64,000 nucleotides of DNA from Escherichia coli (GTDB lineage: Bacteria > Pseudomonadota > Gammaproteobacteria > Enterobacterales > Enterobacteriaceae): assembly GCF_003334765.1 (NCBI RefSeq), contig NZ_QOWT01000006.1; one strand, 5' to 3'. A program made the translations under genes and the position numbers. This document shows, piece after piece, positions 1 to 10,317 of this stretch. The notes beneath the pieces were generated by a model. It made no database searches, was not told where the DNA came from, and saw only the letters and a program-made list of their open reading frames with translations. Each line of letters begins with the position of its first letter. Position 1 is the stretch's first letter.

Positions 1-425
1 TCGTTGTATTTGAACAACTCCGGGCGAAAGTGAATTTCACGCGCCAGATGTGTTGCTGGATCTACAGAAAACATACGAACGCGGCGACGGAATCCCATTC
101 CCATATGGAAGAACTGAGCGTCCAGTTGACGGTTCTCAACGTTATGCCAGAGCGATTTTTCGGCGTCGTATTGAATACTGTTATAAGCCTGCGGCGTCAT
201 TGTCGCCAGCGTGTCAGGTAACGGACGAGGCGCACCACGCCACGCTGTTTGCGCTAAGTCGTGCGCCATTGACTGTAGAATGGAGAAGTCAAAACGCTGG
301 GTTTGCCCGTCGGCAATATCAGAATCTGCCGCGAATGCCGCCTGAGAAAAAAGAGAAGCAATGCCGCTGGTACCGCACACGGCGGCCATAGCCATTGAAC
401 CTTTAATAAATCGTCTACGATCCAT
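1..425 (-). CDS. opgD: Glucans biosynthesis protein D (OpgD/MdoD), 5' portion only; gene runs off the window start
   Basis: Reverse-strand translation from ATG at 423-425 gives [32 protein letters not shown]... with a twin-arginine Tat motif (RRxFIK); no stop before the window edge. Matches remembered OpgD N-terminus. Confidence 0.88.
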
Positions 426-649
426 ACCTGAAAGTGAGTCCTTCTGGTGTTGTGAATGGTCCCGCGCTGGTCGTTTTCAGCGGCAAGAAAGTGCTTATTT
501 ATGACCGCTCACTCTAGACAATATTTATTAATAATCCAATTGTTGAACTGAGAGAATATGCATAAATCGGCATTTTTTTTATGTCGATGGGATGAGCCTG
601 ATTCGTTTGTAAAATCAGGCAAATTTTTGCAAAGGCGGATGGTCAGATT

Positions 650-1993
650 TTAAAGCAAACCACAGCGACGTTTACTGCGTTCTTCCGCTTCCTGGTAAAG
701 CTGGAACTCATCCAAAACCGGACAACCCAACGCCTGCTCAAATGCTTCGCGACTGGCATTACCGTGACTGCGTGTCTGCGTTTCATTACCCAGATTTGAC
801 TGGAAGATCCCCGCCGCGCTAACGGGCAAGAAATCTTCATAGGTGATGGGTTGCGCCACTACCCAACCACGTTCAATTAAGGGCTGTGGATCGTCTCCAG
901 GATGAATCGCCTGACGATGCGCCTCACCCGAAGGCGTCAGACGGTACCGGAACCATGCCAACCCTTGCTGACGCATTAAAAACTCACTGTCAGGAAAAGT
1001 GCGGAAGGTTTCCTGTAAATGCATTTGGTGAGTGAGATTATCCTGCCCGGTTCCAGCGTTACGCAGAAGATCATCATACAGTTGTCGCCCTTTCGGCGTT
1101 AATGCCACGCCACGCTGCTCAATTTCACCAAAGCGCGCGGTATGCGTGCCCTGTTTCTGCCCCGCAAACAACACCGTCTCTTCCAGTGCTTTAAAGCTGG
1201 TCTGGCGTAGTAAAATCGGTACCTCGCGGCGCGGCGGCCCCTCGATGAGAATTTTGGGTTCAATTCCGCATTCAGGCATCATCGACTGCACCCGGTCAAT
1301 ATCCAGCGTACGTGGCGTCAGGTGGTTGATATGGCATCCAGGAAAACAGACCACATCAGCAATCAACCGATGTTCGTTGTGCAATGCGCGATAGGTTTCT
1401 TCATCTACCGTTGCTGACTGGTGCCAGCGAAACGTTTCCAGGGCTTCCTGCACAAACTCCTGTGCCTGTGTTTCGTTAAAACCGCCCTGCTGCTCATATT
1501 CCTCTAACAGTTGTCGACAACGTGGGGTGAAGATATCGCGCTGACGCAGAATCTCCGCCGCTTTCTGGCGCAAAATTTCGTTCTCGATAAGCTCAAGGCG
1601 GAGTAAGGAGGTAAAAACGCGGAAGGGATTACGCGCCAGAGAAGCATCATCAATGGGCCGAAATGCTGTCGAATGTACCGGCACCCCTGCCTGCGAGAGA
1701 TCGTAATAGCTCACCGGGTACATCCCCATAATGGCAAACATCCGCCGAAGAGTAGCAAGCTCTTGTGCAGTCCCAACGCGAATCGCCCCATGACGTTCAA
1801 CATTCAGTCGCGCCAGCTCGTCTGCATTTACCATTTTTTCGTGCAGTTGAGGATTGTTTTCCAGCACAGCCAGATTCACATCAGCTACCAGTTCCAGCAG
1901 CGTGCCATATTGCGGAACTTCTTGCTGGTACATGGCTGACATTGCCTGCGAAAACTGTTCCCGAATCTCATCCGCCGTGATGCTGTTCGCCAT
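650..1993 (-). CDS. ydcJ: DUF1338-family metalloenzyme YdcJ (447 aa)
   Basis: Six-frame ORF 650..1993 (-), 447 aa, MANSITADEIREQF...; length and sequence match remembered E. coli YdcJ. Confidence 0.93.
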   Translation of the reverse strand: MANSITADEIREQFSQAMSAMYQQEVPQYGTLLELVADVNLAVLENNPQLHEKMVNADELARLNVERHGAIRVGTAQELATLRRMFAIMGMYPVSYYDLSQAGVPVHSTAFRPIDDASLARNPFRVFTSLLRLELIENEILRQKAAEILRQRDIFTPRCRQLLEEYEQQGGFNETQAQEFVQEALETFRWHQSATVDEETYRALHNEHRLIADVVCFPGCHINHLTPRTLDIDRVQSMMPECGIEPKILIEGPPRREVPILLRQTSFKALEETVLFAGQKQGTHTARFGEIEQRGVALTPKGRQLYDDLLRNAGTGQDNLTHQMHLQETFRTFPDSEFLMRQQGLAWFRYRLTPSGEAHRQAIHPGDDPQPLIERGWVVAQPITYEDFLPVSAAGIFQSNLGNETQTRSHGNASREAFEQALGCPVLDEFQLYQEAEERSKRRCGLL

Positions 1994-2209
1994 AGTGTCT
2001 GCCTCCAGTGGTCAGTAATCTGGAGTGTAGGTAACCGCATTCACTCTTGCGGGAAGAATTTACAAACTGTGATCTCGCCGCGAAAACATCAATATTATCC
2101 ATTTTGCTGTAACATAATTGCTTTAATTGTTAATAATATTTTGCAATCAAGTTATCATAATCAAACAACTTCACTTGTCAGCGACACCGCTTCGTTTTTA
2201 ACATCGCTT

Positions 2210-3133
2210 ATGGAAAAAAATAGTCTGTTTAGTCAGCGCATCCGTTTGCGCCACCTTCATACATTCGTAGCTGTCGCACAACAAGGAACTTTGGGGCGCG
2301 CGGCTGAAACCCTTAATTTGAGTCAACCTGCGCTCTCTAAGACATTGAATGAACTGGAGCAGCTGACTGGCGCTCGCTTGTTTGAGCGTGGTCGTCAGGG
2401 GGCGCAACTTACCTTACCCGGCGAACAATTTTTAACGCATGCAGTCAGAGTTCTTGACGCCATCAACACTGCCGGACGGTCGCTTCATCGTAAAGAAGGT
2501 CTTAATAATGATGTCGTCAGGGTTGGTGCACTACCTACTGCGGCACTGGGGATATTACCTTCGGTTATAGGTCAGTTTCATCAGCAACAAAAAGAGACGA
2601 CCTTGCAAGTTGCGACAATGAGTAACCCTATGATTCTGGCGGGTTTAAAAACCGGGGAAATCGATATCGGCATTGGTCGGATGTCAGATCCTGAACTGAT
2701 GACCGGGCTTAATTACGAACTGCTGTTTCTTGAATCGTTGAAGCTGGTTGTCCGCCCTAATCACCCGCTACTTCAGGAGAACGTAACGCTAAGCCGGGTG
2801 CTGGAATGGCCGGTCGTTGTATCACCAGAAGGCACTGCGCCACGCCAGCATTCAGATGCATTAGTGCAGAGCCAGGGCTGTAAAATTCCTTCGGGTTGTA
2901 TCGAAACGCTGTCTGCTTCGCTATCTCGTCAACTTACGGTTGAATACGATTACGTGTGGTTTGTCCCTTCTGGCGCTGTAAAAGACGACCTGCGTCATGC
3001 CACGCTGGTGGCCCTGCCTGTTCCGGGACATGGTGCAGGCGAACCGATTGGAATACTGACCCGCGTAGATGCGACGTTCTCTTCTGGTTGCCAGTTGATG
3101 ATTAACGCTATTCGAAAATCAATGCCGTTCTGA
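2210..3133 (+). CDS. ydcI: LysR-family transcriptional regulator YdcI (307 aa)
   Basis: ORF 2069..3133 (+) contains internal ATG at 2210 giving MEKNSLFSQRIRLRHLHTFVAVAQQGTLGRAAE... (N-terminal HTH of LysR type); the 47-codon upstream extension in the ORF track is not part of the protein. Confidence 0.92.
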   Translation: MEKNSLFSQRIRLRHLHTFVAVAQQGTLGRAAETLNLSQPALSKTLNELEQLTGARLFERGRQGAQLTLPGEQFLTHAVRVLDAINTAGRSLHRKEGLNNDVVRVGALPTAALGILPSVIGQFHQQQKETTLQVATMSNPMILAGLKTGEIDIGIGRMSDPELMTGLNYELLFLESLKLVVRPNHPLLQENVTLSRVLEWPVVVSPEGTAPRQHSDALVQSQGCKIPSGCIETLSASLSRQLTVEYDYVWFVPSGAVKDDLRHATLVALPVPGHGAGEPIGILTRVDATFSSGCQLMINAIRKSMPF

Positions 3134-3138
3134 AAGGT

Positions 3139-3160
3139 GAAGGGATCTGTCGATCCCTCC
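3139..3160. terminator. Hairpin between convergent ydcI and trg 3' ends
   Basis: Imperfect inverted repeat agggatc-tgtc-gatccct followed by T-rich ttgaacatttt; sits in the 37-nt gap between two convergent stops. Confidence 0.4.
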
Positions 3161-3170
3161 TTGAACATTT

Positions 3171-4811
3171 TCACACCGTAGCGAAACTAACTGGTTCACC
3201 CGCTCCGCGAGGTTCTGCCGACACAGAATGTTTGTGCAGACGGAATACATCCACCGCCTCAGTTAATCGTGCCGCCTGTTCTTCAAGGGACACCGCCGCC
3301 GCTGAGGCCTCTTCTACCAGAGAAGCATTCTGTTGCGTCACCTTATCCATTTCAGAAATCGCCTGGCTAACCTGCGTTATGCCTCTACTTTGTTCATCCG
3401 AGGCGGCGGCGATTTCCTGCATGATATGTGTGACACTCGCGACGGCATCAACAATAGTGCTCATGGTTTTCCCGGCCGTTGCCACCTCATCCGACCCCAG
3501 GTCAATTAACCTGACTGATTCACTGATCAAGCCTTCAATCTCTTTCGCCGCCTGAGCGCTGCGACTTGCGAGTGTCCGTACTTCGCTGGCGACAACGGCA
3601 AATCCACGCCCTTGCTCACCCGCTCGCGCGGCTTCAACGGCAGCATTCAGTGCCAGAATATTCGTCTGGAAAGCAATACTGTTGATGACGGCGGTGATCT
3701 CAGAAATTTTCTTCGAACTCGTGGAGATAGCGCCCATCGTTTTTACTACACCGGAAACCGTCTGCCCGCCATCGCTGGCTTTAATAGAAGCCTCTTGCGC
3801 CAGTTTGCTGGCATGATGCGCGTTATCCGCATTCTGTTTCACCGTCGCAGTGAGTTGCTCCATGCTGGCGGCAGTTTGTTCGATAGCCGCCGCTTGTTCT
3901 TCGGTGCGAGATGACAGGTCCGCATTGCCAGCTGAAATTTCGCTGGTGCCACGATAAATCTCTTCCGCGCCCTGTCGAACAGTCCCTACTGTCATCCCCA
4001 GTGAATGCTGCATTTGCTGTAAATGACGACTTAAGCGACCGATTTCATTACGACCCGCCGGTTCATCATTCATCGTCAGATCGCCACTGGCGATTTTTTC
4101 AATCCGTTGTGCGGCATGTTGCAGTGGACGAATGACGATCCGACGTAGCACCATAAATGTTATCAGCGTCATGACCAGGGCAAGCACAAACGCGCCAATC
4201 ATGAACATCCCACCCAGGCGGGTGCGCTGATGGGCCAGTTCCGCCAGTTGGTTGGCTCTGGTGCTACGTATCTTAACGGCTTTGTTCAAAATATCGGTAT
4301 AAGCATTATCCAGCGGTCGGATCTGCTCACTTTCATGATTGATAATCGCTTCAAACATGCCATTTTTGGCATATTTCAACATAGGTTGCATACCCGTGAT
4401 ATAAGCCTGAAAGCGTTGATTTAATTCAGTGTCGAGGGCTTCATCAGCAGGTGTTTTCACCGGTCGATTCTGATAAGCACGATAACCTTGCTGCGACTGT
4501 TTAATCTCCGATTCGGCTTGCGCAATATTTCGCTTCATTGCTTCCATTTCCGCAATACGACTCGCAGCCCCGGCCTGAATCATATTGATCCGGGCTGAAC
4601 GCAAAAAATCTGAACTGTTCGCTAACCCGGTCCGAATCTCAATCTCCGCAGTAACATCACGCTGATCGCGATCGGCCTGCCAGAGGAAATAGCCAGCCAG
4701 GGCTGAACTTAATGCGAATAGAACTAAGATACCGCCTAGAATGCAGGCAAATAACGGAACCAACCTGATGTGATGCAAAAAACCTAATCGCTGTGAGGGA
4801 GTTGTATTCAT
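3171..4811 (-). CDS. trg: Methyl-accepting chemotaxis protein III, ribose/galactose sensor (546 aa)
   Basis: ORF 3171..4811 (-), 546 aa, [27 protein letters not shown]...; two TM segments, HAMP and conserved MCP signalling domain (…[29 protein letters not shown]…). Confidence 0.95.
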
Positions 4812-6555: not shown

Positions 6556-7568
<1,013 letters not shown>

Positions 7569-7575
7569 CGCGCAC

Positions 7576-7605
7576 AGGCGGAGGAAAAAACCTCCGCCTC
7601 TTTCA
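7576..7605. terminator. Hairpin between gapC and aldA 3' ends
   Basis: aggcggagg-aaaaaa-cctccgcct perfect 9-bp stem followed by ctttcactc. Confidence 0.45.
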
Positions 7606-7609
7606 CTCA

Positions 7610-9049
7610 TTAAGACTGTAAATAAACCACCTGGGTCTGCAGATATTCATGCAAGCCATGTTTACCATCTGCGCCGCCAATACCGGATTTACGCCATCCG
7701 GCGTGGAAGCCTTGCATAGCTTCGAAGTTTTCACGGTTGATGTAAGTTTCACCAAACTTCAGCCCTTTAATGGCTTTCATCGCGACGTTCAGATTTTGGG
7801 TATAGATTGATGAGGTCAGGCCGTAATCACTGTCATTAGCCATTGAGATAGCATCTTCCAGCGTGTCAAATGCGACAACTGGCAGCACCGGGCCAAAGGT
7901 TTCCTCATGCATAATCGACATTTCCTGGCGAACATCCAGCAGCAATGTCGGCGGATAATAATATCCTTTCCCCTCTACCGCTTTGCCACCGAACGCCACT
8001 CTCGCCCCTTCTTCTACTGCGCGCGCCACTTTTTGCTCGACCCTTTCCAGCGCCGCGGCGTTAATCAACGGCCCCATCGCAATGTCGTTGCGTTCAGCGG
8101 GGTTACCAAATTGAACCGCCTGCATCGCTTCACCCAGCCGATTGACGAACTGATCATAAATGCCTTTCTGTACATAAACACGTTCTGCACAGTTACACAC
8201 TTGCCCACTATTAATGACGCGTGAATCAACGATGGCTTTGACTGCCAGTTCAAGATCGGCATCGTCCATTACGATAGCTGGTGCTTTACCCCCCAATTCC
8301 AGACACACTTTGGTGATGTTTTTTGCCGCAGTCGCCATGATCTTCTCACCTGCAGAGACGCTGCCTGTCATACTGACCATTGCGACCTTTGGGTTACCCG
8401 CCAGTTCTTGCCCAACGGTTTCACCACGCCCCAGTACAAGGTTAAACACGCCGCGCGGAAGGCCTATTTCATCGACGATTTTGGCGAATGCAATCGCATT
8501 GTTTGGCGTAAATTCACTAGGTTTAATGACGATGGTATTACCGGTCAAAAGAGCGGGAGCCATTTTGCGGGCAATGAGGAAGAACGGGAAGTTCCACGGC
8601 AGAATGCCGGTAGTCACACCAAGCGCACGTTTAAACAAAAGAATATTTTCTCCTGGACGATCGCTTTGAATAATCTCGCCCTCGTAACGCCGTGCCCACT
8701 CCGCCATGTAATCGATATAGTCGGCAGTAAAAGCCACTTCGACTTCAGCCAGCTGCTGGATCTTGCCCCCTTCTTCAACAATCAGCGCACTGATTTCACT
8801 GGCGCGTTCGCGGATCCCGGCGGAGATTTTGCGCAACCAACTGGCGCGTTCAATAGCAGGCAACGCTTCCCATTCTGGTTGTGCACGTTCTGCTGCATCG
8901 ATTGCCTTACGGGCATCCTCGGCCTGACCATCGGGTATGCGGGAAATGACAGCCTCTGTAGCAGGGTTTACCACATCAATCCATGCGTCTCCACGCCAGG
9001 TAACAAACTGTCCATCGATATACATAGGATGTTGAACGGGTACTGACAT
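7610..9049 (-). CDS. aldA: Lactaldehyde dehydrogenase (479 aa)
   Basis: ORF 7610..9049 (-), 479 aa, MSVPVQHPMYIDGQFVTW...; aldehyde dehydrogenase family with catalytic Cys context (…NSGQVCNCAERVYVQ…). Confidence 0.95.
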   Translation of the reverse strand: MSVPVQHPMYIDGQFVTWRGDAWIDVVNPATEAVISRIPDGQAEDARKAIDAAERAQPEWEALPAIERASWLRKISAGIRERASEISALIVEEGGKIQQLAEVEVAFTADYIDYMAEWARRYEGEIIQSDRPGENILLFKRALGVTTGILPWNFPFFLIARKMAPALLTGNTIVIKPSEFTPNNAIAFAKIVDEIGLPRGVFNLVLGRGETVGQELAGNPKVAMVSMTGSVSAGEKIMATAAKNITKVCLELGGKAPAIVMDDADLELAVKAIVDSRVINSGQVCNCAERVYVQKGIYDQFVNRLGEAMQAVQFGNPAERNDIAMGPLINAAALERVEQKVARAVEEGARVAFGGKAVEGKGYYYPPTLLLDVRQEMSIMHEETFGPVLPVVAFDTLEDAISMANDSDYGLTSSIYTQNLNVAMKAIKGLKFGETYINRENFEAMQGFHAGWRKSGIGGADGKHGLHEYLQTQVVYLQS

Positions 9050-9245
9050 GGGCGACTCCTGTGATTTATATGTTTGTTTTCGGTGAATACATTGTTAATT
9101 AACATCAATCATCAGAGAGACGGCATCGTGAAAGGACAATTCTGTGAAGGGCTTCATAAAAACAAGTGTAAAAGGAATAAAAGGCAGAAATAAAAGTCAG
9201 GAGTCATGCCCGTTTGCAAACAAGTGGTTCACAAACGGGCAATTT

Positions 9246-10046
9246 TTAACGTAACGAGCGACTTTCCATCGCCTCGATGAGCACCGCATCATGTTTCAGC
9301 GTTTGCCATGCATGGATGACTTCTGCCGGAAAATCAACGTGAACGATAAAATCTCGCCCGCGGGGACCGTAGCCATCGCTATCATCGCGTAAACGCGGCA
9401 GCTCGCCAGTGAGTAGTGAGAGATAACGCTCAACTGGCCATAATCCTTGTAACTGATTAATAAAGATTACACTGTCTGCGTTATTTCCTAACTGAGGAAC
9501 GAATCCGGGATAACTTAACCAGCGTGGTGCATCGGGATTGTCCCCAGTCATACGGCGGAACGTCGCCATCGTGCGCCGCTGCATGGTGGGGTCCTGAACA
9601 ACGATAGCCGTATGAACTCGTTCTACGGCCTGATTCAATAGCGCGATGCTAAAGCGTGCGTTTTCACCGCAGTTTGTTGACTGGTCTTCAATCCAGATTT
9701 TTTCATGCGGAATGTGCCAGAACTGATGAGCGATATCCGCCAGGATGGTCGCTTCTGCTCTGCCAGTGGTGCGGATAGTGTTGTAGTGCGGATGCTGTGC
9801 GATGGCGCTATACAAAAAAGTTGTCGAGTGACCGATACCACCACTAATCAGTAAAGGAATTTGCTGATCGCGGGCAATCTTACATGCCGCATCGATAGTC
9901 GGCATAACCGCATTGCCTGCAAGGATCACGCAATCGGCCTGATACGGCACCTCACCGGAGAAATCATCCTGCGCCAGCCACTGTCCGATAACATTTATGG
10001 CATCTATAGTTGCCGGCGAAAGCGTCGGAAACGGGGTAATGTTCAT
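9246..10046 (-). CDS. ydcF: DUF218 protein YdcF (266 aa)
   Basis: ORF 9246..10046 (-), 266 aa, [29 protein letters not shown]...; matches remembered YdcF. Confidence 0.92.
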
Positions 10047-10260
10047 GGTTCCTCCTTATCGTTCCCTTAAGAATACTGCGTGAGATAATAGTGAGAAGCG
10101 GAGCACTCTGAAAGGAGGAAATCGTATGTCCTTAACCGCCACTCCGCAAGCCTGACATATCTTTTAAGGAAATGCTGTAGATAAACATTATTCATCTTGC
10201 AGCAGAGAATTGTATTTTTCTGAATTCCTGAATTTTTACCCTTACCGTTTTAGAATTAAT

Positions 10261-10295
10261 AAAAAACCCGGCGCTAAATGCTTACCGGGTTTTTT
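10261..10295. terminator. Rho-independent terminator downstream of hrpA (bidirectional in form)
   Basis: aaaaaa-cccggcg…cttaccggg-tttttt: GC stem flanked by an A-run and a T-run, just 3' of the hrpA stop. Confidence 0.6.
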
Positions 10296-10317
10296 CTTTA
10301 TCAGGCAAATAGCAGGG

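What the first reader, a model, noticed from the sequence alone, without database searches (positions are those of the whole stretch)
650..1993. ydcJ: conserved DUF1338 metalloenzyme with no assigned E. coli pathway
The sequence shows an intact 447-aa ORF, divergently arranged with the LysR regulator ydcI across a 216-nt shared promoter region. To my recollection DUF1338 proteins include a Pseudomonas enzyme converting 2-oxoadipate to 2-hydroxyglutarate; the substrate of the E. coli protein and whether YdcI controls it are unknown to me.
Basis: partly seen in the sequence, partly recalled or inferred. Interest (0 to 1): 0.3.

Follow-up and report, generated by a model that had tools for sequence, protein, structure and literature searches.

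The report
E. coli ydcJ is HglS enzyme
The gene is real and intact, but it is already known: it encodes the iron enzyme HglS, which turns 2-oxoadipate into D-2-hydroxyglutarate. What remains open is where E. coli gets that substrate and whether the neighbouring regulator YdcI controls the gene.

Summary
A 447-aa ORF lies at 650..1993 on the minus strand. It is divergent from the LysR gene ydcI (ATG at 2210) across exactly 216 nt, in E. coli K-12 DNA.

- The protein is a full-length Pfam HGLS (formerly DUF1338) match and passes the NCBIfam HglS equivalog cut-off.
- It is one residue different from crystal structure 2RJB.
- It keeps every catalytic and specificity residue of P. putida HglS.
- RefSeq already names it HglS.
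- Thompson et al. 2020 report that purified E. coli YdcJ converts 2-oxoadipate to 2-hydroxyglutarate.

New here, from 80 related loci:
- Outside Enterobacterales, hglS sits in a complete lysine/2-aminoadipate catabolic cluster with a different, GcvA-type LysR regulator.
- In Enterobacterales those partners are absent from the flanks, and YdcI, a PcaQ-like regulator, is the neighbour.
- The 216-nt spacer consists of two separable modules. One always travels with ydcI and the other always travels with hglS.
- A PcaQ-type palindrome upstream of hglS in about half of the enteric loci is missing in E. coli.

YdcI control of ydcJ is therefore unproven and looks weaker than the gene arrangement suggests.

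Verdict: already known, low interest.

The parts
650..1993 (-). ydcJ (hglS) coding sequence, 447 aa plus stop. Codons of functional residues: H68 at 1790-1792, R72 at 1778-1780, H224 at 1322-1324, E290 at 1124-1126, E292 at 1118-1120, V391-S392 at 818-823.
   Evidence: ORF list. Pfam PF07063 HGLS over residues 14-400, E=1.6e-161. NCBIfam NF049974 HglS equivalog, 743 bits against a cut-off of 550. PDB 2RJB differs by 1 residue; 6W1G (P. putida HglS) matches at E=1.2e-157. Residues checked.
1994..2209 (.). The 216-nt ydcJ-ydcI intergenic spacer, made of two separable conserved modules joined by a short non-conserved junction.
   Evidence: Sequence. Alignment of 20 directly adjacent enteric spacers. 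Behaviour of the modules when the genes are separated.
2002..2006 (-). Shine-Dalgarno GGAGG of ydcJ, 8 nt upstream of the ATG.
   Evidence: Read from the sequence. Conserved as CACTGGAGGCA in most Enterobacteriaceae.
2024..2029 (-). Predicted proximal -10 hexamer TACACT of ydcJ, preceded by C (CTACACT). This is a prediction with no experimental transcription start site.
   Evidence: T, A and the final T are invariant in 32 enteric hglS upstream regions, while the inner positions vary (TACACT, TACGCT, TACCCT, TAAACT, TACAGT, TACATT) (by eye).
2052..2074 (-). Conserved hglS-associated upstream block: GATCACA (2074-2068) and AAATTCTTCC (2061-2052), at fixed spacing to the -10-like hexamer and the ATG. 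It is a candidate activator site; the binding factor is unknown.
   Evidence: G-TCACA is invariant in 32 sequences. The block stays about 84 nt upstream of the hglS ATG whether the upstream gene is ydcI, ppaC, pcaH, an MFS gene or an unrelated gene.
2154..2181 (-). Distal sigma-70 promoter reported for ydcJ: CTGACA (2181-2176), 16-nt spacer, TATGAT (2159-2154).
   Evidence: Promoter scan hit scoring 10/12. The same hexamers are listed for ydcJ in the genomic-SELEX constitutive promoter catalogue, with an H-NS flag (PMC3946193).
2130..2158 (+). ydcI promoter TTAATA-17-TATCAT. Its -10 overlaps the distal ydcJ -10 on the other strand.
   Evidence: Promoter scan. The same hexamers are listed for ydcI in PMC3946193. 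It lies inside the module that always travels with ydcI.
2105..2209 (+). ydcI-associated conserved module (TGATAAC...GCAAA...TTAACA plus the leader), presumably the ydcI promoter and operator.
   Evidence: Invariant columns in 20 spacers. The module stays next to ydcI when pcaG, ppaC or an MFS gene replaces hglS as the neighbour.
2210..3133 (+). ydcI, a 307-aa LysR-type regulator of the PcaQ/CatM clade.
   Evidence: The best NCBIfam match is PcaQ TIGR02424, full length, 287 bits against a cut-off of 303.8. The closest solved structure is CatM, E=1.3e-28. RefSeq annotation.

Best explanation
ydcJ encodes the E. coli orthologue of HglS. HglS is an Fe(II)-dependent enzyme of the vicinal-oxygen-chelate fold. 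It binds 2-oxoadipate through its 2-oxo-acid group on a His/His/Glu metal site and through its distal carboxylate on an arginine. It consumes one O2, releases CO2 and leaves D-2-hydroxyglutarate. The next step, D-2-hydroxyglutarate to 2-oxoglutarate, is provided in E. coli by YdiJ, which is encoded about 270 kb away. Shown: the identity, the conserved catalytic residues, the fold (by near-identity to a solved structure) and, from the literature, the in vitro activity. Inferred: in E. coli the enzyme works as a stand-alone two-step salvage route (YdcJ plus YdiJ) that returns stray 2-oxoadipate to 2-oxoglutarate. Such 2-oxoadipate could come, for example, from transamination of 2-aminoadipate taken up or formed from damaged lysine. 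The dedicated lysine, pipecolate and 2-aminoadipate genes that flank hglS in other bacteria are absent from the flanks of the Escherichia locus. Also inferred: the gene is transcribed from its own conserved upstream module rather than from a promoter truly shared with ydcI.
For: - Family membership: Pfam HGLS, E=1.6e-161. The NCBIfam HglS equivalog scores 743 bits against a cut-off of 550.
- Structure: the protein differs by 1 residue from PDB 2RJB and aligns to P. putida HglS 6W1G over residues 5-445 at E=1.2e-157.
- Residues: E. coli H68, H224 and E290 (with E292) correspond to HglS H70, H226 and E294. R72 corresponds to R74, and V391/S392 to V402/S403. All are present and conserved in 13 enteric orthologues and 21 distant representatives (residue roles from PMC7286885).
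- Activity: purified E. coli YdcJ converts 2OA to 2HG (PMC7286885).
- Next step: ydiJ, annotated D-2-hydroxyglutarate dehydrogenase, is present in K-12.
- Retention: the gene is present in 5406/5426 E. coli genomes, with dN/dS 0.043.
- Context elsewhere: in non-enteric loci hglS is flanked by 2-aminoadipate transaminase (738 bits), YdiJ (1537 bits), an AmaA-like protein and AmaB (825 bits). These are absent from the 6-kb flanks of the Escherichia loci.
- Own upstream module.
Against: - No E. coli phenotype, flux or in vivo substrate measurement is known to me. The authors who assayed the enzyme leave its physiological role open.
- For E. coli YdcJ, the text I read reports only 2OA conversion. 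The wider substrate panel was run on the Pseudomonas enzyme.
- The proximal promoter is a prediction from conservation, with no transcription start-site data.
- The source of 2-oxoadipate in E. coli is unidentified. I did not test whether any E. coli aminotransferase accepts 2-aminoadipate.
Confidence: 0.85

Rival explanations
1. ydcI and ydcJ form a classical LysR divergent pair. YdcI binds the 216-nt spacer, represses itself, and activates ydcJ in response to a small-molecule ligand. The ligand might be 2-oxoadipate or a related C6 dicarboxylate.
For: - The ydcI-hglS neighbourhood is kept in 32 of 34 Enterobacterales loci across two families.
- In Erwiniaceae an aromatic-acid-type MFS gene and hglS lie head to tail, divergent from ydcI, like a regulated operon.
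- A PcaQ-type palindrome ATAA(C)-N5/7-(G)TTAT sits at a fixed 122-137 nt upstream of the hglS ATG in 14 of the 32 loci; in one more (L028) it lies in the ydcI-MFS spacer. It is usually the only copy in 13 kb. [quoted passage not shown]
- YdcI's nearest relatives, CatM and BenM, are regulators of muconate catabolism (that their ligands are C6 dicarboxylates is my recollection).
- ydcI and ydcJ both rise at entry to stationary phase in O157:H7.
Against: - The palindrome is absent from the E. coli spacer even with 2 mismatches allowed.
- The spacer is two modules that separate cleanly when the genes are separated.
- Lelliottia keeps the hglS module without ydcI.
- Outside Enterobacterales no hglS locus carries a YdcI relative; 16 loci carry a GcvA-type LysR instead.
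- In several enteric loci pcaHG lies between ydcI and hglS, so the palindrome may serve pcaHG.
- The ChIP-exo paper's main text lists gltA, nhaA, dtpA, lldP and gltP as targets, but not ydcJ.
Confidence: 0.3
2. In Enterobacterales the enzyme has been recruited to another job, acting on a different 2-oxoacid, for example one linked to aromatic-acid (protocatechuate or quinate) catabolism. The 2-oxoadipate activity would then be a retained side reaction.
For: In enteric genomes hglS lies next to pcaHG, an aromatic-acid-type MFS transporter, a PQQ quinate/shikimate-type dehydrogenase and a PcaQ-like regulator, rather than next to lysine-catabolic genes.
Against: - All substrate-contacting residues defined for 2-oxoadipate, including the specificity arginine, are unchanged.
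- The E. coli enzyme turns over 2-oxoadipate.
- The Pseudomonas enzyme accepted only 2-oxoadipate in a panel of seven 2-oxoacids.
- Many enteric loci also keep an aminotransferase, a GcvA-type regulator and a Lys/Arg/Orn-binding protein just downstream of hglS. That fits amino-acid catabolism.
Confidence: 0.07
3. ydcJ in E. coli is a functionless relic left behind after the loss of its pathway partners.
For: The lysine-catabolic partners and the enteric downstream block (esterase-like gene, GcvA-type regulator, aminotransferase, binding protein) are missing next to the Escherichia gene.
Against: - dN/dS is 0.043 against E. albertii.
- The gene is present in 5406/5426 complete genomes at 95% identity or more.
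- The catalytic residues are intact and the purified protein is active.
- The upstream module is conserved.
- Expression is regulated according to the literature, both in stationary phase and through the Csr system.
Confidence: 0.03

Closest known systems
HglS (PP_5260) of Pseudomonas putida KT2440, 2-oxoadipate dioxygenase/decarboxylase (PDB 6W1G/6W1H)
   Same: The two proteins align end to end (residues 5-445, E=1.2e-157). They share the same His/His/Glu metal site, the same specificity arginine and the same Val-Ser substrate loop. The same in vitro reaction is reported for the E. coli protein.
   Different: In P. putida the gene is required for growth on lysine and sits near D-lysine catabolic genes. 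In E. coli no 2-aminoadipate transaminase, AmaA or AmaB gene lies within the 6-kb flanks, ydiJ is about 270 kb away, and no phenotype is known.
YdcJ (SF1787) of Shigella flexneri, PDB 2RJB ('uncharacterized protein')
   Same: It differs by one residue from the window protein over all 447 residues (S190 here, L in 2RJB). The fold of the E. coli protein is therefore effectively solved.
   Different: The structure was deposited without a function or a bound substrate.
hglS clusters of Halomonadaceae and Rhizobium (loci L033, L036, L039, L043, L044, L062-L068, L075)
   Same: The enzymes are orthologous at 58-67% identity.
   Different: These clusters have 2-aminoadipate transaminase, D-2-hydroxyglutarate dehydrogenase YdiJ, L-pipecolate oxidase-like and piperideine-6-carboxylate dehydrogenase genes alongside hglS. 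Their LysR regulator is GcvA-type and is related to YdcI only in the DNA-binding domain.
PcaQ, LysR-type activator of protocatechuate (pca) genes in Agrobacterium and Sinorhizobium (comparison for YdcI, not YdcJ)
   Same: YdcI and its enteric orthologues match the PcaQ model over their full length at 284-300 bits, and no other family comes near. Some enteric genomes have pcaHG beside ydcI and an ATAACC-N4-GGTTAT palindrome, like the S. meliloti PcaQ site ATAaccgggggatTAT.
   Different: All scores fall just below the curated cut-off of 303.8. E. coli has no pca genes at this locus and no such palindrome in the spacer. Published E. coli YdcI targets concern pH homeostasis and gltA.

Membership tests
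HglS / Pfam PF07063 (formerly DUF1338) 2-oxoadipate dioxygenase/decarboxylase | Full-length match to the family profile | tested here: met
   PF07063 model positions 1-386 of 386 match residues 14-400, E=1.6e-161.
HglS / Pfam PF07063 (formerly DUF1338) 2-oxoadipate dioxygenase/decarboxylase | Score above the curated equivalog cut-off (NCBIfam NF049974) | tested here: met
   743.4 bits against a cut-off of 550. The mycobacterial paralogue model NF050083 scores 383 bits, below its cut-off of 600.
HglS / Pfam PF07063 (formerly DUF1338) 2-oxoadipate dioxygenase/decarboxylase | His/His/Glu metal-binding triad (HglS H70, H226, E294) | tested here: met
   E. coli H68, H224 and E290. H68 and H224 are invariant and E290 is at least 90% conserved in 22 diverse sequences. 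All are present in 13 enteric orthologues.
HglS / Pfam PF07063 (formerly DUF1338) 2-oxoadipate dioxygenase/decarboxylase | Specificity arginine that binds the distal carboxylate of 2-oxoadipate (HglS R74), and the Val402/Ser403 loop | tested here: met
   E. coli R72, V391 and S392. The roles of these residues are taken from PMC7286885.
HglS / Pfam PF07063 (formerly DUF1338) 2-oxoadipate dioxygenase/decarboxylase | Vicinal-oxygen-chelate fold with a central partly closed beta-barrel | tested here: met
   Not modelled here. The protein differs by 1 residue from solved chain 2RJB_A, which the HglS authors describe as having the same fold and used for molecular replacement.
HglS / Pfam PF07063 (formerly DUF1338) 2-oxoadipate dioxygenase/decarboxylase | Fe(II)- and O2-dependent conversion of 2-oxoadipate to D-2-hydroxyglutarate plus CO2 | not testable with these tools
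   Reported for purified E. coli YdcJ by LC-MS in PMC7286885. Kinetics and stereochemistry for the E. coli enzyme were not in the text I read.
HglS / Pfam PF07063 (formerly DUF1338) 2-oxoadipate dioxygenase/decarboxylase | Genomic association with lysine/2-aminoadipate catabolic genes (a contextual feature, not strictly defining) | tested here: not met
   In E. coli the flanks are ydcI, trg, opgD, ydcH and rimL. The association holds in many non-enteric loci. ydiJ is present but unlinked.
PcaQ (TIGR02424), considered for the neighbour YdcI | Score above the curated equivalog cut-off | tested here: not met
   287 bits against a cut-off of 303.8. Enteric orthologues score 284-300 bits. I therefore describe YdcI as PcaQ-like and do not file it as PcaQ.
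PcaQ (TIGR02424), considered for the neighbour YdcI | Adjacent pca catabolic genes and an ATAACC-N4-GGTTAT type operator | tested here: not met
   Both are absent in E. coli. Both are present in Pseudocitrobacter, Kluyvera, Pluralibacter and an unnamed Enterobacteriaceae isolate.

The most novel reading that the evidence does not exclude
YdcI is a PcaQ/CatM-clade sensor of a C6 dicarboxylate. In Enterobacterales it would have been re-tuned to 2-oxoadipate or a close relative, and it would control hglS through the conserved GATCACA...AAATTCTTCC block. That block has no assigned binding factor. If so, the repeated loss of ydcI in long-term starvation and acetate evolution experiments would be linked to 2-oxoadipate / 2-hydroxyglutarate / 2-oxoglutarate metabolism, and the ligand of an orphan E. 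coli regulator would be identified.
Probability: 0.1. Interest if true: 0.45.

Novelty: already known. Interest (0 to 1): 0.15.

Why it matters
It matters little as a discovery. The enzyme family was de-orphaned in 2019-2020, the E. coli protein was assayed, and current annotation carries the name.

The residual value is as a pointer to a small open problem in a model organism. E. coli keeps, under strong selection, a highly specific 2-oxoadipate enzyme and the matching D-2-hydroxyglutarate dehydrogenase, yet it has no known route that makes 2-oxoadipate.

The comparative map made here gives concrete hypotheses for anyone who takes that problem up. It covers the full lysine cluster elsewhere, the eroded context in Escherichia, the separable promoter modules and the lost PcaQ-type operator. 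It also warns against assuming that YdcI regulates ydcJ merely because the genes are divergent.

Tried and rejected
- The first homologue search returned only near-identical E. coli sequences and gave no diversity. I replaced it with the 50%-cluster representative search.
- No inverted repeat was reported in the E. coli spacer with a 6-nt seed. My own scan found only weak 5-6-nt dyads.
- An Rfam search of 1900-2300 gave only chance-level hits (E values 4.8 and 8.3), so there is no known RNA family in the ydcJ leader.
- I considered the GATCACA block as a CRP half-site. I set this aside because the left half-site is not conserved and the phasing relative to the predicted start is about 3 bp off the usual class I position. 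This is reasoning from the alignment and was not tested.
- I considered a structured leader or riboswitch. The Shine-Dalgarno hairpin has some compensatory changes (79% of cells paired). The upstream helix does not hold in a fixed register (41% paired), and the T-A-N-N-N-T conservation pattern fits a -10 box better.
- The supplementary ChIP-exo peak tables of the YdcI study were not held. The YdcI transcriptome paper (Romiyo and Wilson 2020) and the PcaQ footprint paper were not held either. I therefore could not check directly for a YdcI peak at ydcJ.
- I rejected the idea that the GcvA-type LysR near hglS in enteric loci is the orthologue of the one in Rhizobium. They are only 31% identical.
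Full report
**Observation**

The ORF list gives a 447-aa ORF at 650..1993 on the minus strand, starting with ATG. The LysR gene on the plus strand has its annotated start at 2210, so the spacer 1994..2209 is exactly 216 nt. The stretch 400-3300 is 100% identical to E. coli K-12 MG1655. It occurs at 80% coverage or more in 5406 of 5426 complete E. coli genomes. There it is annotated ydcJ or hglS ('2-oxoadipate dioxygenase/decarboxylase HglS'), ydcI, trg and opgD.

**What the protein is**

- The translated ORF matches Pfam PF07063 over the whole model, E=1.6e-161. This family was called DUF1338 and is now named HGLS.
- It scores 743 bits on the NCBIfam HglS equivalog model, whose cut-off is 550.
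- Against the Protein Data Bank it differs by one residue from 2RJB, the Shigella flexneri YdcJ deposited as 'uncharacterized protein'.
- It aligns over residues 5-445 with P. putida hydroxyglutarate synthase 6W1G, E=1.2e-157.
- The residues that Thompson et al. 2020 (PMC7286885) define for catalysis are all present. The metal ligands H70, H226 and E294 correspond to E. coli H68, H224 and E290. R74, which holds the distal carboxylate and sets specificity, corresponds to R72. The V402/S403 loop corresponds to V391/S392.
- These residues are invariant or nearly so in 22 diverse family members and unchanged in 13 enteric orthologues.

**What is already published**

The same paper states that the purified E. 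coli homologue YdcJ converts 2-oxoadipate to 2-hydroxyglutarate. It also says that 'future work will elucidate whether ... [quoted passage not shown]

'No assigned pathway' is still fair.

The mechanism was established for the Pseudomonas enzyme:
- The 2-oxo-acid group binds Fe(II) in bidentate fashion.
- One O2 is consumed per substrate molecule.
- Decarboxylation and hydroxylation follow, as in hydroxymandelate synthase.

The step after HglS is encoded in K-12 by ydiJ, annotated D-2-hydroxyglutarate dehydrogenase, about 270 kb away.

**Is the gene maintained?**

Yes. dN/dS against E. albertii is 0.043 at dS 0.85, and it stays at or below 0.1 in every comparison where dS could be estimated. 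A decaying relic is excluded.

**Genomic context in other organisms**

I fetched 80 hglS loci from species-representative genomes. I clustered their neighbouring ORFs and named the recurrent clusters with NCBIfam.

Outside Enterobacterales (Halomonadaceae, Rhizobium and others), hglS is repeatedly flanked by:
- 2-aminoadipate transaminase (738 bits, cut-off 650);
- YdiJ-type D-2-hydroxyglutarate dehydrogenase (1537 bits, cut-off 1350);
- an L-pipecolate oxidase-like protein;
- L-piperideine-6-carboxylate dehydrogenase (825 bits, cut-off 730);
- a GcvA-type LysR regulator.

Together these make a complete route from lysine through pipecolate, 2-aminoadipate, 2-oxoadipate and D-2-hydroxyglutarate to 2-oxoglutarate.

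None of these 46 loci has a YdcI relative. Their LysR regulator resembles YdcI only in the DNA-binding domain.

**Genomic context in Enterobacterales**

- 32 of 34 loci have ydcI upstream of hglS and divergent from it.
- Many Enterobacter, Lelliottia, Cedecea and Pantoea loci also carry a block downstream of hglS, before opgD. It comprises an esterase-like gene, a GcvA-type LysR, a YbdL-like aminotransferase and a Lys/Arg/Orn-binding protein.
- This block is shared by Erwiniaceae and Enterobacteriaceae, so it is probably ancestral.
- Escherichia, some Citrobacter and Pseudescherichia lack it.

E. coli ydcJ is therefore a stranded enzyme whose local partners have been stripped away.

**The regulator**

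YdcI's only strong family match is PcaQ, the activator of protocatechuate genes. It scores 287 bits against a cut-off of 303.8, and enteric orthologues score 284-300 bits. Its closest solved relatives are the muconate-catabolism regulators CatM and BenM.

In 11 enteric loci, genes lie between ydcI and hglS:
- the protocatechuate 3,4-dioxygenase genes pcaHG in Pseudocitrobacter, Kluyvera, Pluralibacter and an unnamed Enterobacteriaceae isolate;
- an aromatic-acid/H+ symporter-type MFS gene in Pantoea and Mixta, co-directional with hglS;
- a manganese pyrophosphatase gene in two Citrobacter species.

Several loci also have a PQQ quinate/shikimate-type dehydrogenase beside ydcI. YdcI thus looks like the enteric branch of PcaQ, and its contact with hglS in E. 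coli may partly result from gene loss between them.

**The 216-nt spacer**

Aligning 20 directly adjacent spacers and 32 hglS upstream regions shows two conserved modules.

Module A is next to ydcI, at window about 2105-2209.
- It contains the invariant motifs TGATAAC and TTAACA.
- It contains the ydcI promoter TTAATA-17-TATCAT. The promoter scan finds this promoter, and the genomic-SELEX promoter catalogue lists it (PMC3946193).
- It stays with ydcI when the neighbour is pcaG, ppaC or the MFS gene.

Module B covers the last 84 nt before the hglS ATG.
- It contains GATCACA (2074-2068), AAATTCTTCC (2061-2052), CTACACT (2030-2024) and the Shine-Dalgarno GGAGG (2006-2002).
- Only G-TCACA and the T, A and final T of the hexamer are invariant across 32 sequences. 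That is the pattern expected of a -10 box, with an upstream factor site and no recognisable -35.
- The module stays at the same distance from hglS whatever lies upstream. This includes Lelliottia, which has no ydcI there.

The so-called shared promoter region is therefore two independent units placed side by side.

The catalogue also lists a distal constitutive ydcJ promoter, CTGACA-16-TATGAT (2181-2154). Its -10 overlaps that of ydcI.

**A lost operator**

A palindrome ATAA(C)-N5/7-(G)TTAT is present in 15 of the 32 enteric loci. In 14 of them it lies 122-137 nt upstream of the hglS ATG, and it is usually the only copy in 13 kb. In the fifteenth, Pantoea L028, it lies in the ydcI-MFS spacer instead.

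It resembles the S. meliloti PcaQ site ATAaccgggggatTAT (PMC5002191). [quoted passage not shown]

E. coli, E. albertii, the sampled Citrobacter species and the Enterobacter cloacae group lack it. In the E. coli spacer no match exists even with two mismatches allowed.

**Does YdcI control ydcJ?**

Taken together, YdcI control of hglS or of its neighbours is plausible in some enteric bacteria. In E. coli it is unsupported. The main text of the ChIP-exo study never mentions ydcJ. I could not see its supplementary peak tables.

**Other regulation**

Published data add three points:
- ydcI and ydcJ both rise at entry to stationary phase in O157:H7.
- ydcJ responds strongly to removal of CsrB and CsrC.
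- H-NS is flagged at the spacer.

A 6-bp hairpin (CUCCAG...CUGGAG) can sequester the Shine-Dalgarno sequence in transcripts from the distal promoter. It is paired in 79% of cells and shows some compensatory changes, for example CUCGUG/CACGAG in Siccibacter. The test is biased because the structure was drawn from the E. coli sequence, and the result is inconclusive. No Rfam family matches the leader.

**Verdict**

This is a correct observation of a gene whose identity and in vitro reaction are already established and already annotated. The novelty class is 'already known'.

Two questions remain: where E. coli obtains 2-oxoadipate, and whether YdcI has any say over ydcJ. The comparative analysis makes the second less likely than the gene arrangement suggests, about 0.3. 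Interest is low.

Noticed in passing
window 2024-2074 (minus strand); same module in L002-L031, L041, L070, L079 at about 84 nt upstream of the hglS ATG: A conserved upstream module of hglS has invariant G-TCACA and a T-A-N-N-N-T hexamer at fixed spacing, with no -35 element. It travels with hglS whatever the upstream gene is. The factor that would bind GATCACA...AAATTCTTCC is unknown.
   Followed up: partly
L005 5867, L006 5877, L008 1854, L009 5867, L010 5864, L015 5870, L017 2384, L018/L019 5879, L021 5864, L024/L025 5864, L070 5864, L028 4383 (box start positions); absent from window 1994-2209: A PcaQ-type palindrome ATAA(C)-N5/7-(G)TTAT lies at a fixed 122-137 nt upstream of hglS in 14 of 32 enteric loci, and beside ydcI in one more (L028). 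It is usually the only copy in 13 kb. It has been lost in Escherichia, the sampled Citrobacter and the Enterobacter cloacae group.
   Followed up: partly
L006 4428-5821; also L008, L010, L021, L070 (pcaHG); L027 4599-5933, L028, L030, L031, L034 (MFS); L004 and L020 4897-5877 (pyrophosphatase): In some enteric genomes, genes are inserted between ydcI and hglS. These are protocatechuate 3,4-dioxygenase pcaHG, an aromatic-acid/H+ symporter-type MFS transporter, or a Mn-dependent inorganic pyrophosphatase. This fits YdcI being the enteric branch of PcaQ.
   Followed up: partly
e.g. L013, L022-L026, L041, L079 downstream of hglS (about 7400-13300); absent in window and L002-L004: A block lies between hglS and opgD in many Enterobacteriaceae and Erwiniaceae and is missing in Escherichia. 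It comprises an esterase/lipase-like 504-aa protein, a GcvA-type LysR, a YbdL-like aminotransferase and an ArgT-like Lys/Arg/Orn-binding protein. The aminotransferase could be the local source of 2-oxoadipate in those species.
   Followed up: partly
window 2003-2025 (minus-strand RNA): A hairpin CUCCAG-N11-CUGGAG overlaps the ydcJ Shine-Dalgarno sequence. It is paired in 79% of aligned cells and shows compensatory changes in Siccibacter and Pluralibacter. It could form only in transcripts from the distal promoter. The GGA in the Shine-Dalgarno region may relate to the reported Csr effect on ydcJ.
   Followed up: partly
window 2153-2159: The -10 hexamers of the catalogued ydcI promoter (TATCAT, plus strand) and the distal ydcJ promoter (TATGAT, minus strand) overlap on opposite strands. 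The two promoters should therefore compete for RNA polymerase.
   Followed up: no
window about 6568-7568: A glyceraldehyde-3-phosphate dehydrogenase gene (gapC) is annotated in K-12 as a pseudogene, frameshifted and with an internal stop. Coordinates were converted from locus L001 12169-13169.
   Followed up: no
NZ_CP061530.1 (strain WEM25) 2009894-2013111, hit H1: The match to window 400-3300 comes in two pieces spanning 3218 bp for a 2901-bp query. Two HglS-type features are annotated under it. This suggests an insertion of about 0.3 kb or a duplication that splits ydcJ in this strain.
   Followed up: no
L082 2154-5086 (E. coli K-12 record NZ_CP032667.1, near ydiJ): The unlinked ydiJ gene lies about 4 kb from ydiB (quinate/shikimate dehydrogenase), aroD and two MFS transporter genes. 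This is a second case of a 2-hydroxyglutarate-pathway gene lying near quinate/shikimate genes. It may be coincidence.
   Followed up: no
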